Below the pieces are notes generated by a model. That model made no database searches. It saw only the letters and a list, made by a program, of their open reading frames with translations, and was not told the origin of the DNA. A stretch of DNA of 64,000 nucleotides from Naegleria gruberi (Eukaryota): NCBI GenBank assembly GCA_000004985.1, contig GG738878.1. The stretch is one strand, 5' to 3'. Both the position numbers and the translations under genes were made by a program. Shown here piece by piece: positions 19,115 to 32,467 of the stretch. Within the stretch, counting starts at the first letter, position 1, and every line of letters starts with the position of its first letter.

Positions 19115-21424
19115 ATGAACCTATCCAACAAATTATATGTTGGAAAGGAAAATCTAACACCCAGCCATATGAATATTCTTTCTCCCCAAACAATTCCCTC
19201 ATCAAGAACATCAGCAACACAACAACCATTTAGCAAATCGATATCATCATCTAGTCTCTCGAAACCAACTATTGGAACTTATTCGAGAAGCAAGGCACTC
19301 ATTCAAATTCCAAGTTTTGAAGAATTAAAAAGCAATCAACAACCATTCCATACATTGTCCGAACTCTTCTCCAAGCTTGATACATTTCCAAATCTGCACA
19401 ATGATCAGAAAATTGAATTTATCAAATTATGTATTACTTGTATTGATAAGAGTTTTCTTAAAGTTCACGAGAGGGATATCTACATGTTTTGGATAATATT
19501 GGCCATTCAATTTGTTGGTAATAAGGATATTCCTAACTGGGATGAGGAAGTTAGAAAACGACTCGCCGAACATTTTGAATTCTTATCAAACTATAATCAT
19601 CCTGTTAAAGATGAGGAAAATTTCTACATTTTGAACGCCTTATTCGAGTGGAAAACCAATGAACAACCTGACAAAATATTCAGAAGTATTTCTAAGGTAC
19701 AACAGGGTATTAACCGATTGGGTGAAACTCCAATTTTGGCTGAAATCAAAGGTTCTCTTTTACAGAAATCAATATTTCCACAAGTTGAAATTTCTTACAA
19801 ACCAACCACAATGATTCCATCTTTTCAAAATTTACAAGTACCATCTAGCACACCAACAACTAAATCTACCTCTCCTCAAGATGTTAGTAATTCAGGTGCA
19901 GGATTATTTACTGGAAATAGAAGAAGAAGATCAAATTCAAATAATGACTTCCAACTCATACAACAAAATTCAACAAGGCAGTCAAGTCGTTCCAATCTCT
20001 TTGCCGGTAGTAAGCAATCATCGATCAATATTAATGCTGAAATGCCAAGCATTTCCTCTAGTCCATTTATTTCCTCTACTTCCCTTTCTTCCAACTCGGT
20101 TAGTGCAACACCAACTACTGCACTTTCCATCAAAACTACTAGTGTGCCCCCAACACAAAGCACACCTCAACCACTCCCAACACTCACTTTTCCAACTCCT
20201 ACTTCCATTAACACAGAGAATGTAAATAAGAGACCTAGAGAAGAAGTTGTCTCTACACCATCTGCAACTCCAAATACCAGTACTGCACCAAACAGTACTT
20301 CAACATCTGCTGTCTCTGAGGATGGCAGTGCCAAAAGGTCTAAGCCTACAGTATTTGTACCAATTAACAATAGAGAATACCAAGTATTAAAAAGGATTGG
20401 ATCAGGTGGAAGTTGCACTGTTTACAAGTGTGTTGATACCAATACCAAAGAAGAGGTTGCTATAAAACATATCAAGATTGACAGGACTAAAAACGATAAA
20501 ACTGTCCTTGATGGGTTTCTAGCTGAAGCTACTCTTTTAGAACAATTAAGAGCTGATGATATTGGAGAGAATATTATTAAATTAATTGATTACGAATATA
20601 GACCTCATAACAAGAGGGATGAAATCCTTCTTGTTATGGAGCTAGGTACCACTGATTTTAATAATATTATCAAGAAGAAGAGTGCCAACCAATCATTTAC
20701 TACAGATGAATTGAGAGTTTACTGGAGACAAATGCTTGAAGCAGTTTCCTTTATCCATTCGAAAAAGATTGTCCACACAGACATTAAGCCTGCCAACTTT
20801 TTACTTGTCAATGGTAAATTGAAACTTATCGACTTTGGTATTGCTAAAGTTCCAGATCATGAACAAACTCTAAGCATTTGTAGAAATTCTATTGTTGGTA
20901 CTCTTAACTTTATGCCACCTGAGAGTTTTATTAATCACAATGCCAATGATCCAAAATATAAGTTTGGTCCTCCTGGAGATATTTGGAGTCTTGGAATTAT
21001 CTTTTATCAGACAATTTACCAAAAGACACCATTCTCTGATTTTGAAGATCACCTCACCAAGATTGCACAAATTACAGATAGGAATAAGGAACCATATTTC
21101 CCACCATGTGAAGAGCAATACCAAGAGGCAGTTGACTTGCTGAAAACCATCTTGGTTAAAGATCCAAGTCAAAGACCTTCTATCCGAACAATTTTAGAAC
21201 ATCCATTTTTTGCTCAACCTTTACAACTTTCTATTAATACCAACGAAGAACAAGAAGCATTTTGTAAGAATGTGTTGAAAACTTTTGAATTCTTACTTGA
21301 AAACCTTCCATCTCAATCCGTTCCTCCCCAAAAAGCAGCTTTTAGATTATTAAAGCTTTGTCACGATAATAAGAATGGCGAAGAAATGTCAGAAGATGAC
21401 ATTACTAATTGCCTTTCACAATAA
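19115..21424 (+). CDS. Mps1/TTK-family dual-specificity protein kinase (769 aa); S/T/N-rich N-terminus, C-terminal kinase domain
   Basis: ATG start. Kinase motifs present: [12 protein letters not shown]...[32 protein letters not shown] (cf. TTK [26 protein letters not shown]), TLNFMPPE. Confidence 0.8.
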   Translation: [769 protein letters not shown]

Positions 21425-23767: not shown

Positions 23768-23914
23768 TGAATTCAATAAACCAGATCAAATTCAATATTC
23801 TTCTTGGTTGGCTTTACATTGAAAAATAGCTCATAAAAAGAAACCATAGTTGTTTTGAAGTTTTGTATTTTTTATGGAGCTTTTTTAGTTTTTTCTTGTA
23901 AGTTTAATCAACCT

Positions 23915-24334
23915 TTAGTATCTAGTCTTTTTACGATCATCCTCAAAATCATCCTCCGAATAGTAATCATCATATTCACATCTATTTCTTTTACCATAAA
24001 ATGAACTATCCAAGAGGAATAGTGGACATTCTTCTTCAGCATCAGAATCTTCATCTTCTGTTTCATCTTCACTGCTACTTTCACAGCTATAATCAGCATC
24101 GGAATCTTCTTCCGAGATGAATTGCTCATCAAATTCAAGACCCTTTCTAATGACTTCATAGATCTTATCATCTGAGCAGCAGTCATTGAAAGTTTGCTTT
24201 GCTAACATTGACTCACAATTCATCAAAGCAGTCAATGGAGAAAAGGCTTCACCATCATTGGTCGTACGAACACAATTACTAGTATCAATAATTCTTCCAT
24301 CATCGACTTCATCAACCATAATAAGAGTCAACAT
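23915..24334 (-). CDS. hypothetical acidic protein (about 139 aa, D/E/S-rich)
   Basis: ORF 23915-24382 in the track. Its first ATG (24382) is immediately followed by GTAAGT, so the second ATG (24334) was chosen. Protein-like but no known domain. Confidence 0.4.
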   Translation of the reverse strand: MLTLIMVDEVDDGRIIDTSNCVRTTNDGEAFSPLTALMNCESMLAKQTFNDCCSDDKIYEVIRKGLEFDEQFISEEDSDADYSCESSSEDETEDEDSDAEEECPLFLLDSSFYGKRNRCEYDDYYSEDDFEDDRKKTRY

Positions 24335-24375
24335 GTTGGCGATATATATTGTTAGATAAAAACTTACCCAAAATT

Positions 24376-24660
24376 TTAACATTGAAAATTATCATCTTCA
24401 GATTTAAAATTAATTAAATTAATTTCATCTGATAAATTTGTTTCATCAATATGTTCTCTAAAATTTTCATTTGTTGTAAAAATTAAAAATGAATTTGAAT
24501 TATGAATTATATCTTCTCCTAATTCATCTGAAATTTCACTAATTCTAATTATTTGTAAATTTTTAATTATTGAATATAATCTTCCAAAATTAATACAAAT
24601 TGGTGAATGTTTACAATTTGATTTAATTATAAATGTATCATTATCTTTTAAATAATAAAA
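24376..24660 (-). pseudogene. Met-less open frame of about 94 codons in about 85% AT DNA, thioredoxin-fold-like (possible YtxJ/DUF2847-type KHSxxCxI motif): relic or unannotated exon
   Basis: Not in the ORF track because it has no in-frame ATG, GTG or TTG. Translation: FYYLKDNDTFIIKSNCKHSPICINFGRLYSIIKNLQIIRISEISDELGEDIIHNSNSFLIFTTNENFREHIDETNLSDEINLINFKSEDDNFQC*. An open frame this long is improbable by chance at this AT content. It is bounded 5' by TAA and lies 7 nt from the tRNA-like fragment. Confidence 0.3.
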
Positions 24661-24666
24661 TTAGGT

Positions 24667-24724
24667 AGGGTTGCGCGTAGGTCTCATAATCCTAAGGTCG
24701 TGAGTTCGATCCTCACTGACCCCA
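24667..24724 (+). tRNA. 5'-truncated tRNA-Met(CAU)-like fragment / tRNA pseudogene followed by a TTTTT Pol III terminator (24727..24731)
   Basis: Anticodon stem TAGGT/TCCTA with loop CTCATAA, variable loop AGGTC, T-arm GTGAG-TTCGATC-CTCAC, 3' acceptor strand TGACCCC and discriminator A. The 5' acceptor strand (expected GGGGTCA) and a complementary D-stem are absent upstream. Confidence 0.45.
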
Positions 24725-24787
24725 ACTTTTTATCTTGTTGCAGTTATTTCAATTTACATTGTAAAACTTAAAATTTTAAATTAAAAA

Positions 24788-26440
24788 ATGCCTGAAATTG
24801 CACTTCAGGAGGAGGTGGTTATTATTTATGATTCTGGATTCAGAAATTATTCAAATATTCAAAATGATGCCTCAACTGATCTTTCTCCCATCAATCTTCC
24901 AAGAGAAATAATTTCATCAATTTTTGAATATTTAGACGAAACAACACTAATGCACTCAATCCGATTAGTTTCTACGGGTTGGAATGCCATACTCGAAGAT
25001 GATCTCATGATCGGACCAGTTTCTTTATTTTCCAACCATCAAATTATTCAACATCAACAATTGACTGATCTTTCGAATAGAAACACATGTATTGATCATC
25101 AAATAATTTCAATATTCAAGAACTTCGTTAGATATCACAAATCATACATTTTGGAATTTAAAAAATTCACTCTAGATTCGTATTTGACTTTCACAATTGA
25201 CCGAAAACAACGTGAAAAGTTTTTTTCTGTAAAATCGACTCCAGATGTGGAATGGCACAATTTGGATTTCACAGACGATACCAATGATTCAGATTATTTA
25301 AAATCATTAGTTTTGGAAAATATTGGAAATTGTAATTCGAATGACAAGATTAATTGGTTTACCATATTTAGAAATGCCAAGAATGATTGTATTTCTTTCC
25401 ATACTTTTTTGGAAAAGAGAAAACAATCAATGGATAGAACGAATTTATTATATAGAAAATTGTACTTTCCATTAATGATATTTTTATTTATTATTTTTGG
25501 AATTTTACTTTTATGTAATTTTAACTATTTCCAAAAAGGGGAATTTAATTATTTTCTACTAATTTGCTTTTCTCCCTTATTCATGATACTAGTTCTATTA
25601 ACTAATATTCCATTCACTTTAATTGGAATATTAATTAAGGATTACAATGTACTTCAAAAAGAATTACAAAAGAGAGATTTCTATTTTAGGACATCTCCTT
25701 CCAGTGAAACTTACAAAGAATTAAGAATTAGAATACTCACTCGATTATTTTCCAAAATTGCGATTCAAATTTCCTTATTCTCACTCTTACTTTCCATTTT
25801 AGCATTTGCCATTTTACAATGCTTTGCACTGGTATTTCCATTAAAAATCGAACCATACGAATATGCAAGCATTTACAATTTTAGAGCTTTACTTTCACAT
25901 GGAATATTCGTAACTGCTCCGTTTTTCATAGCCTCACCAATTACCTCCCTATTCTTTGTGGCAACAGATTCGGTTTTCATTCAATACGTTATTCTAAACA
26001 AACACTATATTACTTTGTTAGTGGATTATGTTGTACATCTGGGAGCAGGTTTGCTTCCAGTTGGAATTCTCATTACTGACATTTATGTAACAGGGTATTT
26101 GATTTCTTTCGTATTGTTGAGTTGTTTCTTTGGAGCAATGGACATGTTTCTTTTTGTTGGGCTTGTGGATTATTTCAAAAGGAAGAGATTAAGTTTATTG
26201 ACATTTATTAGATCTGAATATTTGCTTTTATTGGATAGATTATGCTTGATGGTTGCTTTCTTAATACTAATTGGATTTCCAATTGGTTGTTTTGTAATGG
26301 CATTTGACGTCTATCAAAATGGAGTGATTTATGCAAGCTTTTTGATTGGTGGCATGTCAATACTGTTATGTTACATTGGATTCTCATTTTGCTTGAAAGA
26401 ATCAGTTTACCTAATGGCCAAACCTACAGCATTACTTTAA
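24788..26440 (+). CDS. F-box-like protein with C-terminal polytopic membrane domain (550 aa)
   Basis: ATG start. The motif LPREIISSIFEYLDETTLMHSIRLVSTGWNAIL fits an F-box. The C-terminal half has at least 8 hydrophobic helices. Confidence 0.5.
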   Translation: MPEIALQEEVVIIYDSGFRNYSNIQNDASTDLSPINLPREIISSIFEYLDETTLMHSIRLVSTGWNAILEDDLMIGPVSLFSNHQIIQHQQLTDLSNRNTCIDHQIISIFKNFVRYHKSYILEFKKFTLDSYLTFTIDRKQREKFFSVKSTPDVEWHNLDFTDDTNDSDYLKSLVLENIGNCNSNDKINWFTIFRNAKNDCISFHTFLEKRKQSMDRTNLLYRKLYFPLMIFLFIIFGILLLCNFNYFQKGEFNYFLLICFSPLFMILVLLTNIPFTLIGILIKDYNVLQKELQKRDFYFRTSPSSETYKELRIRILTRLFSKIAIQISLFSLLLSILAFAILQCFALVFPLKIEPYEYASIYNFRALLSHGIFVTAPFFIASPITSLFFVATDSVFIQYVILNKHYITLLVDYVVHLGAGLLPVGILITDIYVTGYLISFVLLSCFFGAMDMFLFVGLVDYFKRKRLSLLTFIRSEYLLLLDRLCLMVAFLILIGFPIGCFVMAFDVYQNGVIYASFLIGGMSILLCYIGFSFCLKESVYLMAKPTALL

Positions 26441-27881: not shown

Positions 27882-27931
27882 NNNNNNNNNNNNNNNNNNN
27901 NNNNNNNNNNNNNNNNNNNNNNNNNNNNNNN
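27882..27931. other. assembly gap (50 N)
   Basis: Run of 50 N; flanking sequence is discontinuous (PUB gene 3' end versus mid-kinase-domain). Confidence 0.99.
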
Positions 27932-28488
27932 GGATATTATTGAACAGATCATTGAACAAGTTGGAATTGGAATTCATTCTTTGCATTCAAAGGAATTAGC
28001 TCATCGTGATAGCAAATATTTTGGTCAGTGGTTCAAACAAGCTCTTCATTTGCTTGTGTGATTTTGATTTTGTCAATGATAACCTCACAACATCCTTATC
28101 TATTGTGGGGACTCCAAAATATCTTCCTCCTGAAATGATTAGTCAGGGGATCCTTTTAAAGAAGAATAGTACAAAGATTGACATTTGGTGCTTTGGAATA
28201 ATCATTTTTAGAATATTGTGTGAATTACTTGGTATTGATTGTTTTTCAGATTGTCCTGAAGAGATACTCGTAGAAGATGATATAAGATTAGGAAGAGCAA
28301 AGGATAGCGAACAATTGAGACAATATCTGGATAAGAAACTTTCAACATCAGAGCTATTGATCAATTATACTTTGGGAGAAGGAAGAAGAATCACCCGATT
28401 TATTGAACTTACGAGGCAATTACTCGAATACCAATATGAGAAGAGGCCAAATGCTTCCACATTAATTGAACTCATTCAGACTCCTTGA
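27932..28488 (+). pseudogene. protein-kinase C-terminal fragment, copy A of the duplicated unit, carrying an 8-nt deletion that destroys the HRDLKEAN catalytic-loop reading frame
   Basis: About 98% identical to 30366-30930. Copy A reads catcgtgat|agcaaat where copy B reads catcgtgatttgaaggaagcaaat. It begins immediately after the gap. Confidence 0.6.
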
Positions 28489-28948
28489 TAAAAATTCGAA
28501 TTAGTAATTTTTCCATTAGCTCTTTTGAGAGCTTTGAAAATTCTCACTGGACACAATTCAAGATTGAAAGTGGTTGTCTCACTCCATCCCTATGTTTTGG
28601 ATCTGACTTTGTAAAACAAATTGATTCATGTAATGTTGAAATTCCTATTATTCTAAGGTTTGAAAATCATTAATAAGCTCAAATAGTTGAGTGCTTTGAA
28701 CTCTTTTTGAAAGTTCTCATGCTGGTTATTTTGTAAAACTACTTGGTCGGGATTCATTTCCGACACAGAGCAACATATGTGTCTGTTTTGCTGTTAAAAA
28801 AGGACGCACAAATATCATCATCACTTGTGTCTATTGCCAAACTATACTGACACAGTATTTAAGGAAGAGATTTTGAAACCATGATCCAAAAAACAACAAC
28901 AAAAAAACAACTGAATATCTCTTGTAATTTACCTAGAATTCTATAATA

Positions 28949-29851
28949 ATGTCTTCTAATCAACAAAATCAATACACTTCTGTAATTGTTATTGGAGCTG
29001 GTGGAAATTGTGGTCTCGAAATTGCCAAAGCAATCTTGGAACATTACCCACAAGTCAAGTTGACCTTGCATGTTAGAAATGAGGAAAAGGTTGCCTCTTT
29101 GAAAGAAAAGGGAGGTAATGTAATTGTTGGGGATATTCTCTCAACAAGTGAAGAGGAGCTCGTAAATGCATTGTCTGGTAAAGAGGTAGTCATTACTGCT
29201 CTTGCAGCTAATCCTGAGCTATTGCTTAAAGGTCAATTGAAACTCATTGAAGCTTCCAAGAAGGCAGGTGTTAAAAAGTACCTTCCAACAACCTATGGTT
29301 TGAATTTAAATCTTTTCAAACCCGAGGAAAGTATGTTAAATGATGCCAAGTTCAAAATTACTGAAACTATCAAACAAAGTGGTTTAGAATGGACTCAAGT
29401 GAATGTAGGAATCTTTGCTCATATGGCTTCCTTCTTATTATTCACCAAGTTTGATGCAGAAACCAAGACAGTTCATTACAATGGTGATTTGAGTGAAAAG
29501 GTTGATGTTAGCTTTTTAGAAGATATTGGAAAGTTTGTAGCTAAATCTGCTATCAGAAAGGATATTGTTGGTGATATTAATGTTGCTTCTGACACTTTGA
29601 CAGTTAAGGAAATTGCTCATTTCATTCATGGTGAAAATATTGAATTCAAACAAGATCAAACAGCAGCTGATTGGATTAAATCCATCCAAGAAAGAATTGC
29701 CGAAAAGTTAAATTCTCCAAGTGAATTATTTCCAATTCTTTTGGAGCAATTAAGATGGACAATTATTTCAGGAAGAAGAGTTGAAAGCTCCAATAATAAT
29801 CTCTTCCAAGATATCAAGCCAAGATTATTCAAAACAATCAATCAACAATAA
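28949..29851 (+). CDS. NmrA-like / isoflavone-reductase-like NAD(P)-binding protein, copy A (300 aa, intact)
   Basis: ATG start. Rossmann motif VIVIGAGGNCGLEIAKAIL, NmrA/PCBER-like length and layout. Confidence 0.7.
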   Translation: MSSNQQNQYTSVIVIGAGGNCGLEIAKAILEHYPQVKLTLHVRNEEKVASLKEKGGNVIVGDILSTSEEELVNALSGKEVVITALAANPELLLKGQLKLIEASKKAGVKKYLPTTYGLNLNLFKPEESMLNDAKFKITETIKQSGLEWTQVNVGIFAHMASFLLFTKFDAETKTVHYNGDLSEKVDVSFLEDIGKFVAKSAIRKDIVGDINVASDTLTVKEIAHFIHGENIEFKQDQTAADWIKSIQERIAEKLNSPSELFPILLEQLRWTIISGRRVESSNNNLFQDIKPRLFKTINQQ

Positions 29852-29923
29852 TATTGTTTCACATTAATATCTATTAATAAAAGATGCTAGAATAATATCT
29901 TCTTCTTCATCATCATCGTCATG

Positions 29924-29973
29924 NNNNNNNNNNNNNNNNNNNNNNNNNNNNNNNNNNNNNNNNNNNNNNNNNN
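29924..29973. other. assembly gap (50 N)
   Basis: Run of 50 N. Confidence 0.99.
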
Positions 29974-29993: not shown

Positions 29994-30930
29994 TCAATAC
30001 TTGCGTGACAATTACAAAGATCCAAGATATATAGGAAATGGTAACTTTGGAACTGTTTATTTGGTAACTCATCAATATTTCGATGAAAGAAAAGCAATCA
30101 AACAGTTTTCATTGAGGCAAGAGATAGAAATTGATGAACTAATGAAATGTGTAAGTGTCTTGTCATTTTGATAGTGCTAAAAAGCAAAGTATGAATTGAT
30201 TGGCAAAGATTCTCCTCATGTTCTTCCTGTGGAAGGAGTTTTTAAAACTAAAATTAAGGATGACCTTTTTGGCCTGGAAGTTTTGACACCAAAAATGGAA
30301 ATGTCATTAGATGTTTATTTACGAAAGCACTTGTTTGCAAATTCAAAACCACTGTCAACAAAATTGGATATTATTGAACAGATCATTGAACAAGTTGGAA
30401 TTGGAATTCATTCTTTGCATTCAAAGGAATTAGCTCATCGTGATTTGAAGGAAGCAAATATTTTGGTCAGTGGTTCAAACAAGCTCTTCATTTGCTTGTG
30501 TGATTTTGATTTTGTCAATGATAACCTCACAACATCCTTATCTATTGTGGGGACTCCAAAATATCTTCCTCCTGAAATGATTAGTCAGGGGATCCTTTTA
30601 AAGAAGAATAGTACAAAGATTGACATTTGGTGCTTTGGAATAATCATTTTTAGAATATTGTGTGAATTACTTGGTATTGATTGTTTTTCAGATTGTCCTG
30701 AAGAGATACTCGTAGAAGATGATATAAGATTAGGAAGAGCAAAGGATAGCGAACAATTGAGACAATATCTGGATAAGAAACTTTCAACATCAGAGCTATT
30801 GATCAATTATACTTTGGGAGAAGGAAGAAGAATCACCCGATTTATTGAACTTACGAGGCAATTACTCGAATACCAATATGAGAAGAGGCCAAATGCTTCC
30901 ACATTAATTGAACTCATTCAGACTCCTTGA
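29994..30930 (+). CDS. protein kinase, copy B, 5'-partial (N-terminus lost in the gap); exons 29994..30150 and 30190..30930, intron 30151..30189 (39 nt, GTAAGT...AAG)
   Basis: Exon after acceptor ttcttag encodes ...YIGNGNFGTVYLVTHQYFDERKAIKQFS...ELMKC (glycine loop, beta-3 lysine). Exon 2 encodes HRDLKEANILV, DFDF (DFG-like) and GTPKYLPPE. Confidence 0.6.
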
Positions 30931-31261
30931 TAAAAATTTGAATTAGTAATTTTTCCATTAGCTCTTTTGAGAGCTTTGAAAATTCTCACTGGACACAATT
31001 CAAGATTGAAAGTGGTTGTCTCACTCCATCCCTCTGTTTTGGATCTGACTTGTAAAACAAATTGATTCATGTAATGTTGAAATTTTATAAATAATTTCCA
31101 TATTTTCGAAAATTCCTAAAATTCTAAGGTTTGAAAATCATTAATAAGCTCAAATCGTTGAGTGCTTTGAAAGTTCTCACTGGAAAATCTTGTATTTTGT
31201 CCAAACAACAACAACAAAAAAACAACTGAATATCTTATAATTTATTACCTAGAATTCTAAA

Positions 31262-32163
31262 ATGTCTTCTAATCAACAAAATCAATACACTTCTGTAATT
31301 GTTATTGGAGCTGGTGGAAATTGTGGTCTCGAAATTGCCAAAGCAATCTTGGAACATTACCCACAAGTCAAGTTGACCTTGCATGTTAGAAATGAGGAAA
31401 AGGTTGCCTCTTTGAAAGAAAAGGGAGCTAATGTAATTGTTGGGGATATTCTCTCAACAAGTGAAGAGGAGCTCGTAAATGCATTGTCTGGTAAAGAGGT
31501 AGTCATCACTGCTCTTGCAGCTAATCCTGAGCTATTGCTTCAAGGTCAATTGAAACTCATTGAAGCTTCCAAGAAGGCAGGTGTAAAAAAGTACCTTCCA
31601 ACAACCTATGGTTTGAATTTAAATCTTTTCAAACCTGAGGAAAGTATGTTAAATGATGCCAAGTTCAAATTACTGAAACTATCAAACAAAGTGGTTTAGA
31701 ATGGACTCAAGTGAATGTTGGAATCTTTGCTCATATGGCTTCCTTCTTATTATTCAACAAGTTTGATGCAGAAACCAAGACAGTTCATTACAATGGTGAT
31801 TTGAGTGAAAAGGTTGATGTTAGCTTTTTAGAAGATATTGGAAAGTTTGTAGCTAAAGCTGCTATCAGAAAGGATATTGTTGGTGATATTAATGTTGCTT
31901 CTGACACTTTGACAGTTAAGGAAATTGCTCATTTCATTCATGGTGAAAATATTGAATTCAAACAAGATCAAACAGCAGCTGATTGGATTAAATCCATCCA
32001 AGAAAGAATTGCCGAAAAGTTAAATTCTCCAAGTGAATTATTTCCAATTCTTTTGGAGCAATTAAGATGGACAATTATTTCAGGAAGAAGAGTTGAAAGC
32101 TCCAATAGTAATCTCTTCCAAGATATCAAACCAAGATTATTCAAAACAATCAATCAACAATAA
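31262..32163 (+). pseudogene. NmrA-like NAD(P)-binding gene, copy B, with a 1-nt deletion (aagttcaaaTT versus aagttcaaaaTT) causing a frameshift near 31670; otherwise about 98% identical to copy A
   Basis: The ORF track splits it into 31262-31699 and 31711-32163. The homopolymer difference could be a sequencing error. Confidence 0.55.
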
Positions 32164-32185
32164 TATTGTTTCACATTAATATCTA

Positions 32186-32467
32186 TTAATAAAAGATGCT
32201 AGAATAATATTCTTCTTCTTCATCATCATCGTCATTGTTTTGAGTTGGTGGAGGTGGACAAGGATCAACACCCTTATATTTAGTTTCCTTAATGTCTATA
32301 TCTCGTCCTGTAATGAGAGTGTGAATGTTTCGTTCAGAAAACTCAAATAGACCACATTTGACATGTTTCAGGAATGGAATTGGTGATTTTGGGAAGTTTT
32401 TCAAATCCTCTATCACAAACCAAATTCTTTTTCCAGTTTCAGCCAAATGTTTCAACACTTTAAACAC
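32186..32467 (-). CDS. hypothetical protein, 5' end unresolved (no in-frame ATG; the ORF-track start is GTG), acidic C-terminus
   Basis: Protein-like frame ...YAYPYGVFKVLKHLAETGKRIWFVIEDLKNFPKSPIPFLKHVKCGLFEF...DDDDEEEE. An upstream ATGAAGAGGATGATGGAATGG|GTAAAT... could be a first exon, but no canonical acceptor gives the right phase. Confidence 0.3.
   Translation of the reverse strand: MFKVLKHLAETGKRIWFVIEDLKNFPKSPIPFLKHVKCGLFEFSERNIHTLITGRDIDIKETKYKGVDPCPPPPTQNNDDDDEEEEYYSSIFY

What the first reader, a model, noticed from the sequence alone, without database searches (positions are those of the whole stretch)
24376..24731. Met-less thioredoxin-fold-like ORF abutting a 5'-truncated tRNA-Met-like fragment and a Pol III T-run
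About 85% AT DNA holds a 94-codon open frame with no ATG, GTG or TTG, so the ORF track does not show it. The chance of such a frame by accident is on the order of 1e-4. Its sequence (..FIIKSNCKHSPICINF...HNSNSFLIF..) is reminiscent of small thioredoxin-like YtxJ/DUF2847 proteins with a KHSxxCxI motif. Its 5' end is bounded by TAA only 7 nt from a tRNA-like element on the opposite strand. That element keeps a CAU anticodon arm, T-arm, 3' acceptor strand, discriminator and a TTTTT terminator, but has lost the 5' acceptor and D arm. The unit sits in the 48-nt-spaced upstream region of the acidic-protein gene. In dictyostelids, tRNA genes are preferred landing sites for TRE/DGLT retroelements, so a disrupted tRNA next to a coding relic could mark an old integration or deletion event. 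Alternatively it could be a missed spliced gene.
Basis: partly seen in the sequence, partly recalled or inferred. Interest (0 to 1): 0.55.

Follow-up and report, generated by a model that had tools for sequence, protein, structure and literature searches.

The report
Broken tRNA-Met gene beside captured foreign coding DNA
In this Naegleria gruberi genome, about 730 bases, including the front of a methionine tRNA gene, were replaced by about 306 bases of extremely AT-rich DNA that looks like the tail end of an unknown foreign protein gene; it is a strain-specific scar, not a thioredoxin gene.

Summary
A 94-codon minus-strand frame (24379-24660, TAA at 24376-78) has no ATG, GTG or TTG. It abuts a plus-strand tRNA-Met(CAU) remnant (24669-24724) followed by TTTTT.

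The window is Naegleria gruberi, not a dictyostelid. There is no thioredoxin/YtxJ similarity and no credible homologue anywhere.

Two new facts explain the locus:

1. **Coding signature.** All 46 G/C of the frame sit at codon positions 1 and 2, so GC3 is 0/94 (P about 1e-9). Host genes have GC3 of about 30%. This is real coding sequence with a foreign composition.
2. **Sister haplotype.** A metagenome contig (L121) is 98.7% identical over the neighbouring 2.8 kb. It carries an intact 5' tRNA-Met half and 715 nt of ordinary spacer where the window has the AT-rich segment.

So roughly 17 nt of tRNA plus 715 nt of spacer were replaced by about 306 nt. That insert is open from its first codon to a stop codon. 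The best reading is a recent deletion plus capture of a 5'-truncated gene fragment from an unknown, extremely AT-rich donor, probably during break repair. This left a dead tRNA gene. It is a curiosity of modest interest. I could not check whether the insert is present in the reads or the assembly.

The parts
24358..24663 (-). Strain-specific replacement segment (~306 nt, GC ~17%). Read on the minus strand it is TAA, then 94 open codons, then TAA, then 18 nt (AATTTTGGGTAAGTTTTT). The sister haplotype L121 lacks it and has 715 nt of unrelated spacer there.
   Evidence: Between L121 and the window, homology stops at window 24357 and resumes at 24669. The insert has no other copy in the window.
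24376..24660 (-). 94-codon open frame plus its TAA stop. It has no start codon and runs from the very edge of the insert. GC3 is 0/94, with G enriched at codon position 1. Read as the C-terminal part of a foreign protein-coding gene.
   Evidence: No homologue found.
24664..24668 (+). GGTAG, an extra imperfect copy of the tRNA bases 18-22 that follow (GGTTG in the window, GGTAG in L121). Looks like a short junctional duplication.
   Evidence: Direct reading. The alignment starts at 24669.
24669..24724 (+). Remnant of a cytosolic elongator tRNA-Met(CAU) gene, from about position 18 to the discriminator. It holds the D-loop end and 3' D stem, the anticodon arm (CAT 24685-24687), the T arm with its B box (GTGAGTTCGATCCTCAC), the 3' acceptor strand and discriminator A. 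The A-box/5' half is missing.
   Evidence: Rfam tRNA 25.3 bits, below 29. ARAGORN finds nothing. 47 of 48 bases match the L121 tRNA. The 37-nt core is shared with 120 or more eukaryotic tRNA-Met genes in metagenomes.
24727..24731 (+). T5 run, the Pol III terminator of the former tRNA gene.
   Evidence: No CCA is encoded, so this is a genomic gene copy and not a retro-copy of a mature tRNA.
23915..24334 (-). Neighbouring acidic-protein gene NAEGRDRAFT_80325 (139 aa). Its start codon lies 24 nt inside the region shared with L121. Its whole ancestral upstream spacer was replaced.
   Evidence: Exact match to XP_002675455.1; alignment.

Best explanation
In the lineage of this Naegleria gruberi genome, a break in or next to a tRNA-Met(CAU) gene was repaired with two changes. 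About 730 bp were lost: tRNA positions 1-17 plus the 715-bp spacer leading to the acidic-protein gene. About 306 bp of foreign DNA were gained.

The captured piece is the 3' end of a protein-coding gene from an extremely AT-rich, so far unsampled donor. It lacks a start codon because it is 5'-truncated at the junction. It is still open and unameliorated because the event is recent, later than the split from a 98.7%-identical strain.

What remains of the tRNA gene is a dead stump: no A box, no 5' acceptor strand, no D arm. The ORF is most likely an untranslated passenger.

**Shown:** the replacement, the tRNA truncation point, the coding periodicity and the lack of homologues.
**Inferred:** the foreign origin, the capture by end-joining and the lack of function.
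For: **Organism and neighbour.** The kinase ORF and the acidic protein are 100% identical to N. gruberi proteins.

**Sister haplotype L121.**
- It is 98.7% identical over 2.8 kb, up to window 24357.
- It then has 715 nt of 30%-GC spacer unrelated to the window.
- It then has GGGGTCATGGCGCAGTCGGTAGCGCG..., an intact tRNA-Met 5' half.
- Joined to the window's 3' part, ARAGORN calls this tRNA-Met(cat). The window fragment alone is not called.

**Coding signal.** GC3 is 0/94, while positions 1 and 2 hold 25% and 24% G/C. P = 9.5e-10, and it is unique in the window. Host coding GC3 is about 30%, which gives P(0/94) = 3e-15.

**Frame geometry.** The frame runs from the first codon of the insert to a stop, followed by 18 nt of flank.

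**Junction.** It shows a 5-nt imperfect duplication, GGTAG|GGTTG.

**Background knowledge.** DNA capture at double-strand breaks by NHEJ, with or without microhomology, is the established route for numts and other filler DNA (PMC2820518).
Against: - No donor was found. Peptide and DNA scans of IMG/VR, JGI metagenomes, 185k prokaryote genomes, plasmids and phages gave nothing. Neither did 5.8e9 and 1.84e9 protein sets.
- GC3 of exactly 0 in 94 codons is extreme even for very AT-rich genomes: P is 0.008 at a source GC3 of 5%, and 5e-5 at 10%.
- I could not check that the insert is in the public NEG-M assembly or reads. An assembly or record artefact is therefore not excluded.
- Only one sister haplotype is available, and its contig ends inside the tRNA.
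- The end-joining mechanism is inferred from the junction anatomy only.
Confidence: 0.6

Rival explanations
1. The segment is a remnant of a mobile element, either tRNA-targeting or not. Its 5'-truncated ORF end faces the tRNA, as with 5'-truncated non-LTR copies or a decayed integrase-type insertion.
For: - It lies directly at a tRNA gene.
- The ORF is 5'-truncated with an intact 3' end.
- A 12-nt imperfect inverted repeat (24354-24365 / 24724-24735) brackets the unit.
- The rest of the genome could not be searched for other copies.
Against: - The ORF has no RT, integrase, transposase or other domain.
- There is no poly(A), LTR or target-site duplication.
- The event is a replacement with a 730-bp deletion, not a clean insertion.
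- There is no other copy in 64 kb.
- Inverted repeats of that size are at chance level here: 13 pairs in 1.2 kb.
- There is no intact tRNA elsewhere in the window to act as an att partner.
Confidence: 0.12
2. The segment is not biological at this locus. It could be an assembly or cloning chimera, or otherwise artificial sequence in the record.
For: - GC3 of exactly 0/94 is what a back-translation with A/T-ending codons would give, and it is rare in nature.
- No donor or homologue was found anywhere.
- The 155-aa ORF that starts inside the insert is not in the protein collection.
- The scaffold has gaps and near-identical duplicated blocks 3.5 kb away.
Against: - The junctions are clean, with no Ns nearby.
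- Synonymous codons vary (ATT/ATA; TCA/TCT/AGT), which fits natural usage.
- The junction duplication and the linked deletion look like genuine repair products.
Confidence: 0.12
3. The frame is a functional, strain-specific orphan gene or exon, either spliced or started at a non-AUG codon. This could include the reader's thioredoxin-like protein.
For: - There is a strong coding periodicity and an intact frame.
- There are splice-like motifs at both ends: an AG-ended AT tract at the 5' end and GGGTAAGT after the stop.
- There is a weak Pfam DUF7583 hit, E 0.006 and 17 bits.
Against: - There is no start codon, and no room for an upstream exon. Only 57 nt separate the tRNA stump from the divergent F-box ORF, and the only ATG there is followed at once by TAA.
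- An in-frame TAA precedes the GTAAGT.
- The segment is absent from the sister haplotype.
- There is no DUF2847/thioredoxin hit.
- The DUF7583 score is below its cutoff of 27.
- The only database hit, P0003, is an artefact of 13 identical repeats. One repeat alone gives 10.7 bits, E about 6e4.
- The AF2 model has pLDDT 44.
Confidence: 0.08
4. The frame is a chance open frame in an AT-rich spacer, or a nuclear copy of N. gruberi mitochondrial DNA (numt).
For: - A long open frame appears in about 1e-3 of shuffles, so a genome would hold some by chance.
- The mitochondrial genome is AT-rich.
Against: - The GC3 = 0 periodicity has P about 1e-9, and TRF finds no simple repeats to explain it.
- The spacer in the sister strain is 30% GC and unrelated.
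- There is no hit to any annotated protein, including N. gruberi mitochondrial ones.
- A published survey found 0 numts in the N. gruberi nuclear genome (PMC2820518).
Confidence: 0.05

Closest known systems
Filler or captured DNA at repaired double-strand breaks (numt/nupt-type insertions, NHEJ with deletion)
   Same: - An insertion of unrelated DNA is coupled to a deletion of host sequence.
- There is a short junctional duplication or microhomology.
- The captured piece is a random fragment of a gene, here 5'-truncated.
- The variant is polymorphic between close strains.
   Different: - The donor is not the organelle genome or any known sequence.
- Its composition is more extreme than any known Naegleria DNA: GC 16%, GC3 0%.
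tRNA pseudogenes / truncated tRNA gene remnants
   Same: - It retains the anticodon arm, T arm (B box), 3' acceptor strand and Pol III terminator of a canonical elongator tRNA-Met.
- It fails tRNA detectors.
   Different: The truncation is dated and explained by a sister haplotype that has the intact gene at the same position. The break lies in the D loop, at position 17/18.
tRNA-targeted retroelements of dictyostelids and yeast (TRE5-A, TRE3, DGLT-A, Ty3)
   Same: Foreign coding DNA lies immediately 5' of a tRNA gene, with the ORF's 5' end facing the tRNA.
   Different: - The organism is different.
- The tRNA is destroyed rather than left intact at a fixed distance.
- There are no RT/IN/gag domains, no LTR or poly(A), no target-site duplication, and no other copies seen.
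YtxJ / DUF2847 monothiol thioredoxin-like proteins
   Different: There is no profile, sequence or structural support.

Membership tests
YtxJ/DUF2847 (thioredoxin-like) | Significant match to the family profile (Pfam DUF2847, or the NCBIfam YtxJ model) | tested here: not met
   Pfam at E <= 10 lists only DUF7583. NCBIfam gives 0 families.
YtxJ/DUF2847 (thioredoxin-like) | Thioredoxin fold, or similarity to a solved family member | tested here: inconclusive
   phmmer against the PDB gives only E of about 1 hits to NCF2 TPR. The AF2 single-sequence model has pLDDT 44 and cannot be used for fold search.
Functional eukaryotic cytosolic tRNA-Met gene | Complete cloverleaf: 7-bp acceptor stem and D arm (A box) | tested here: not met
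   ARAGORN finds nothing in standard, intron or relaxed modes. The Rfam tRNA model scores 25.3, below 29, with the D arm deleted. The 5' 17 nt present in L121 are absent here.
Functional eukaryotic cytosolic tRNA-Met gene | CAU anticodon arm, T arm/B box, 3' acceptor strand, discriminator, oligo-T terminator | tested here: met
   The 37-nt core is identical to 120 or more eukaryotic tRNA-Met genes.
tRNA-targeted retrotransposons (TRE5/TRE3/DGLT-A/Ty3) | RT/integrase/gag-type ORFs | tested here: not met
   No such domains in Pfam, NCBIfam or PHROGs.
tRNA-targeted retrotransposons (TRE5/TRE3/DGLT-A/Ty3) | Clean insertion at a set distance from an intact tRNA gene, with target-site duplication and element termini (LTR or A-tail) | tested here: not met
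   The tRNA is truncated and 715 nt of spacer are deleted. No TSD, LTR or poly(A) is present.
tRNA-targeted retrotransposons (TRE5/TRE3/DGLT-A/Ty3) | Multiple dispersed copies in the genome | not testable with these tools
   Only this 64 kb window of the genome is available. There is no second copy in it.
Integrase-type island with a 3' tRNA fragment as att repeat | An intact copy of the same tRNA at the other end of an element that encodes an integrase | tested here: not met
   There is no tRNA anywhere in the window. The sister haplotype places the intact tRNA at this very position.
DSB-repair capture of foreign DNA (numt-like filler insertion) | Insertion coupled to a deletion relative to an ancestral allele, with a junctional microhomology or duplication | tested here: met
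   Comparison of L121 with the window shows about 730 nt lost and about 306 nt gained, with a GGTAG|GGTTG junction.
DSB-repair capture of foreign DNA (numt-like filler insertion) | An identifiable donor sequence | tested here: not met
   No donor was found in any collection searched. A published survey reports 0 numts in N. gruberi.
BRC (BRCA2) repeat | Significant match of a single repeat, with the FxxA motif | tested here: not met
   The P0003 hit (E 1.8e-12) comes from summing 13 identical repeats. One repeat alone gives 10.7 bits, E about 6e4. The ORF has FTTN, not FxxA.
Pfam DUF7583 | Score at or above the gathering cutoff (27 bits) | tested here: not met
   17 bits, E 0.0064. No literature was found on the family.

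The most novel reading that the evidence does not exclude
The 306-bp insert is a very recent horizontal capture from an unsampled, extremely AT-rich associate of Naegleria, such as a virus, an endosymbiont or an organelle-like replicon. It would then be a molecular footprint of an unknown partner, preserved at a broken tRNA gene. The orphan tRNA stump, with its B box and terminator, might still bind TFIIIC between two divergent genes.
Probability: 0.3. Interest if true: 0.55.

Novelty: new member of a known kind. Interest (0 to 1): 0.35.

Why it matters
This is a cleanly resolved, polarised example of how a tRNA gene dies and how foreign coding DNA enters a protist genome. The ancestral allele is in hand.

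If the insert is genuine, its composition (GC3 = 0) points to a donor more AT-rich than anything known to live with Naegleria. The insert sequence is therefore a probe for finding that donor.

The case also shows that third-position composition can reveal unannotated, start-less coding fragments that ORF finders miss. Otherwise it has no obvious functional consequence, apart from the loss of one tRNA-Met copy and the replacement of the acidic-protein gene's upstream region.

Tried and rejected
- **Thioredoxin/YtxJ:** no profile or PDB support.
- **Structure prediction:** pLDDT 44, so no fold search was run.
- **Homologue searches, all empty:**
  - word-indexed 5.8e9 proteins
  - full phmmer against 1.84e9 representatives, which returned only a repeat artefact, P0003
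  - IMG/VR, JGI metagenomes and GTDB genomes by peptide patterns
  - plasmids and phages by tblastn
  - PHROGs, weak hits only
- **Simple-repeat origin of the periodicity:** TRF finds only tiny arrays.
- **TIR/MITE reading:** inverted repeats are at chance density.
- **Second copy of the insert, or of the L121 spacer, in the window:** none.
- **Permuted, split or intron-containing tRNA:** there is no 5' half anywhere in the window, and ARAGORN with introns finds nothing.
- **Exact-protein look-ups of the F-box, TPR and kinase ORFs to reach the source contig:** these failed. Only the cluster mate of the acidic protein gave a contig.
- **Upstream mini-exon for the ORF:** the single ATG in 24732-24787 (minus strand) is followed directly by TAA, and no GT follows it.
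- **Literature on N. gruberi tRNA-linked elements or DUF7583:** nothing relevant.

Full report
**1. The observation**

On the minus strand, 24379-24660 is a 94-codon open frame: FYYLKDNDTFIIKSNCKHSPICINF...SEDDNFQC. It is bounded by TAA at 24661-24663 and TAA at 24376-24378. It has no ATG, GTG or TTG and does not appear in the ORF list. Its GC is 16%, against 30-38% in the neighbouring genes.

In 20000 dinucleotide-preserving shuffles of 24340-24663, an open run of 94 or more codons in any of six frames occurred 19 times, or about 1e-3.

On the plus strand, directly adjacent, lies ...GGTAGGGTTGCGCGTAGGTCTCATAATCCTAAGGTCGTGAGTTCGATCCTCACTGACCCCAACTTTTT. This holds the following tRNA parts:
- 3' D-stem strand
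- CAU anticodon arm
- T arm
- 3' acceptor strand
- discriminator
- T5 run

ARAGORN finds no tRNA anywhere in the window. Rfam finds nothing at gathering threshold. At relaxed threshold the tRNA model matches 24667-24724 at 25.3 bits (cutoff 29), with the D arm deleted.

**2. The organism**

The kinase ORF 19115-21421 is 100% identical to a Naegleria gruberi predicted protein. The acidic protein, read from its second Met (23918-24334, minus strand), is exactly NAEGRDRAFT_80325 / XP_002675455.1. The window is N. gruberi nuclear DNA, not dictyostelid. The TRE/DGLT framing does not apply.

**3. The frame is real coding sequence, but not host-like**

All 46 G/C of the frame lie at codon positions 1 or 2. 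Position 3 is 46% A, 54% T and 0% G/C, while G is enriched at position 1. The hypergeometric probability is 9.5e-10.

No other 60-codon stretch in the window, in any frame, has two or fewer G/C at one codon position. Host ORFs in the window have GC3 of about 30%. A host gene would show 0/94 with P of about 3e-15. Even a donor with GC3 of 5% gives only 0.008. TRF finds no repeat structure that could mimic the periodicity.

The sequence therefore evolved as a protein-coding gene under an extreme AT bias that is foreign to this genome.

**4. No identifiable family**

| Search | Result |
|---|---|
| Pfam, E <= 10 | only DUF7583, 17 bits (cutoff 27); no DUF2847 or thioredoxin |
| NCBIfam | nothing |
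| PDB | only E of about 1 noise |
| PHROGs | E 0.03 and 0.17 only |
| AF2, single sequence | pLDDT 44 |
| Word-indexed search, 5.8e9 proteins | nothing |
| Full phmmer, 1.84e9 representatives | one hit, P0003 |
| IMG/VR, JGI metagenomes, GTDB genomes (peptide-pattern scans) | nothing |
| Plasmids and phages (tblastn) | nothing credible |

P0003 is a 1318-aa protein with 13 near-identical BRC-like repeats. Re-scoring shows that one repeat gives 10.7 bits (E about 6e4) and two units give E = 12. The reported 1.8e-12 is a repeat-summation artefact.

**5. The sister haplotype explains the anatomy**

The acidic protein's 90% cluster holds a second member from an ENA metagenome. Its 3579-nt contig was fetched as L121.

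- **Shared part.** L121 782-3579 aligns with window 24357-21557 at 98.7% identity. It has the same MYND and TPR neighbours.
- **Different part.** Upstream of the acidic gene, L121 has 715 nt (67-781) of 30%-GC spacer. This has no similarity to the window's 24358-24663, nor to anything else in the window.
- **tRNA.** L121 then has, in reverse complement, GGGGTCATGGCGCAGTCGGTAGCGCGTAGGTCTCATAATCCTAAGGTCGTGAGTTCGATCCTCAC. This is an intact 5' acceptor strand and D arm, continuing into the same anticodon and T arms as the window (47 of 48 bases). The contig ends there.
- **Reconstruction.** Joining the L121 5' part to the window 3' part gives a sequence that ARAGORN calls tRNA-Met(cat). The window fragment alone is not called, except as a D-armless 'mitochondrial' type.
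- **tRNA type.** The 37-nt anticodon/T-arm core is shared exactly with more than 120 metagenomic loci that have canonical elongator tRNA-Met 5' halves.

An intact tRNA cannot be regenerated from a stump, so L121 is the ancestral state.

In the window's lineage, tRNA positions 1-17 plus 715 nt of spacer were replaced by about 306 nt (24358-24663). The tRNA-side junction lies in the D loop and carries an imperfect 5-nt duplication: GGTAG at 24664-24668, then GGTTG at 24669-24673. L121 has a single GGTAG there.

Read on the minus strand, the insert begins TAA TTT TAT... The open frame therefore runs from the insert's first codon to a stop codon. After that come 18 nt (AATTTTGGGTAAGTTTTT), and homology with L121 resumes at ATCTAACAATATAT, with the acidic gene's ATG a further 21 nt on. 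This is the geometry of a randomly broken, 5'-truncated piece of a longer gene, and it explains why there is no Met.

**6. Mechanism**

The best-supported reading is a double-strand break in or near the tRNA gene, repaired by end joining with a deletion and the capture of a foreign DNA fragment. This is the same process that creates numts (PMC2820518).

The event post-dates a split of about 1.3% divergence. That fits the intact frame and the unameliorated composition.

The donor is unknown. It is unlikely to be the N. gruberi mitochondrion: there is no protein hit, and a published survey reports 0 numts in this genome.

The tRNA stump lacks the A box and cannot give a functional tRNA. Whether its B box still recruits TFIIIC is speculation.

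The replacement itself is shown. Capture by NHEJ, foreign origin and non-function are inferences.

**7. Rivals**

- **Mobile-element remnant.** It has no domains, termini, TSD or second copy, but the whole genome could not be searched.
- **Assembly or record artefact.** This cannot be excluded without reads. GC3 of exactly 0 and the total lack of a donor keep it alive.
- **Functional orphan or spliced gene.** There is no start codon and no room for an upstream exon. The segment is absent from the sister strain.
- **Chance frame or numt.** Periodicity excludes chance. The protein searches and the literature survey argue against a numt.

**8. Verdict**

The thioredoxin and dictyostelid interpretations are rejected.

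The finding is a new instance of a known kind of event, with one odd feature: an orphan coding fragment with GC3 = 0. Interest is modest, at 0.35.

Noticed in passing
window 27932-29922 and 30366-32235; N runs 27882-27931 and 29924-29973: Two direct copies of about 2 kb are about 98% identical, and each is bounded by a 50-N scaffold gap. This is either a tandem segmental duplication or uncollapsed haplotypes in the assembly.
   Followed up: no
window 24788-26440 (+): A 550-aa ORF with an N-terminal F-box (Pfam F-box-like, 29 bits) and many hydrophobic segments starts 57 nt downstream of the tRNA stump. It has no relative in the 5.8e9-protein collection, not even a N. gruberi gene model, so it appears to be an unannotated orphan.
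   Followed up: partly
window 24362-24369 (minus strand GGGTAAGT) and 24646-24660 (minus strand TTTATTATTTAAAAG): A perfect 5' splice-site-like motif lies in the 18 nt after the ORF's stop codon, and an AG-ended AT tract lies at the ORF's 5' edge. This could mean the captured piece came from an intron-bearing AT-rich eukaryote. However, the in-frame TAA 11 nt before GTAAGT does not fit a simple exon.
   Followed up: no
window 24380-24382 (minus-strand ATG) to 24334: The insert supplies a new upstream in-frame ATG. It would extend the acidic protein by 16 residues (MLKFWVSFYLTIYIAN-). The 155-aa form is not in the protein collection. L121 lacks this ATG and has a 1-nt indel in the leader.
   Followed up: partly
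L121 1-3579 (ENA ERZ929261, contig k127_565721): An environmental metagenome holds a N. gruberi-like strain that is 98.7% identical to the window over 2.8 kb. Substitutions cluster in the spacer at 23780-23833. It is a useful outgroup for other structural variants in this region.
   Followed up: partly
P0002 (ENA, 497 aa): There is a 60%-identical homologue of the Mps1-like kinase (window 19115-21421) on a 2.1-kb metagenome contig. It is presumably from another Naegleria or heterolobosean species.
   Followed up: no
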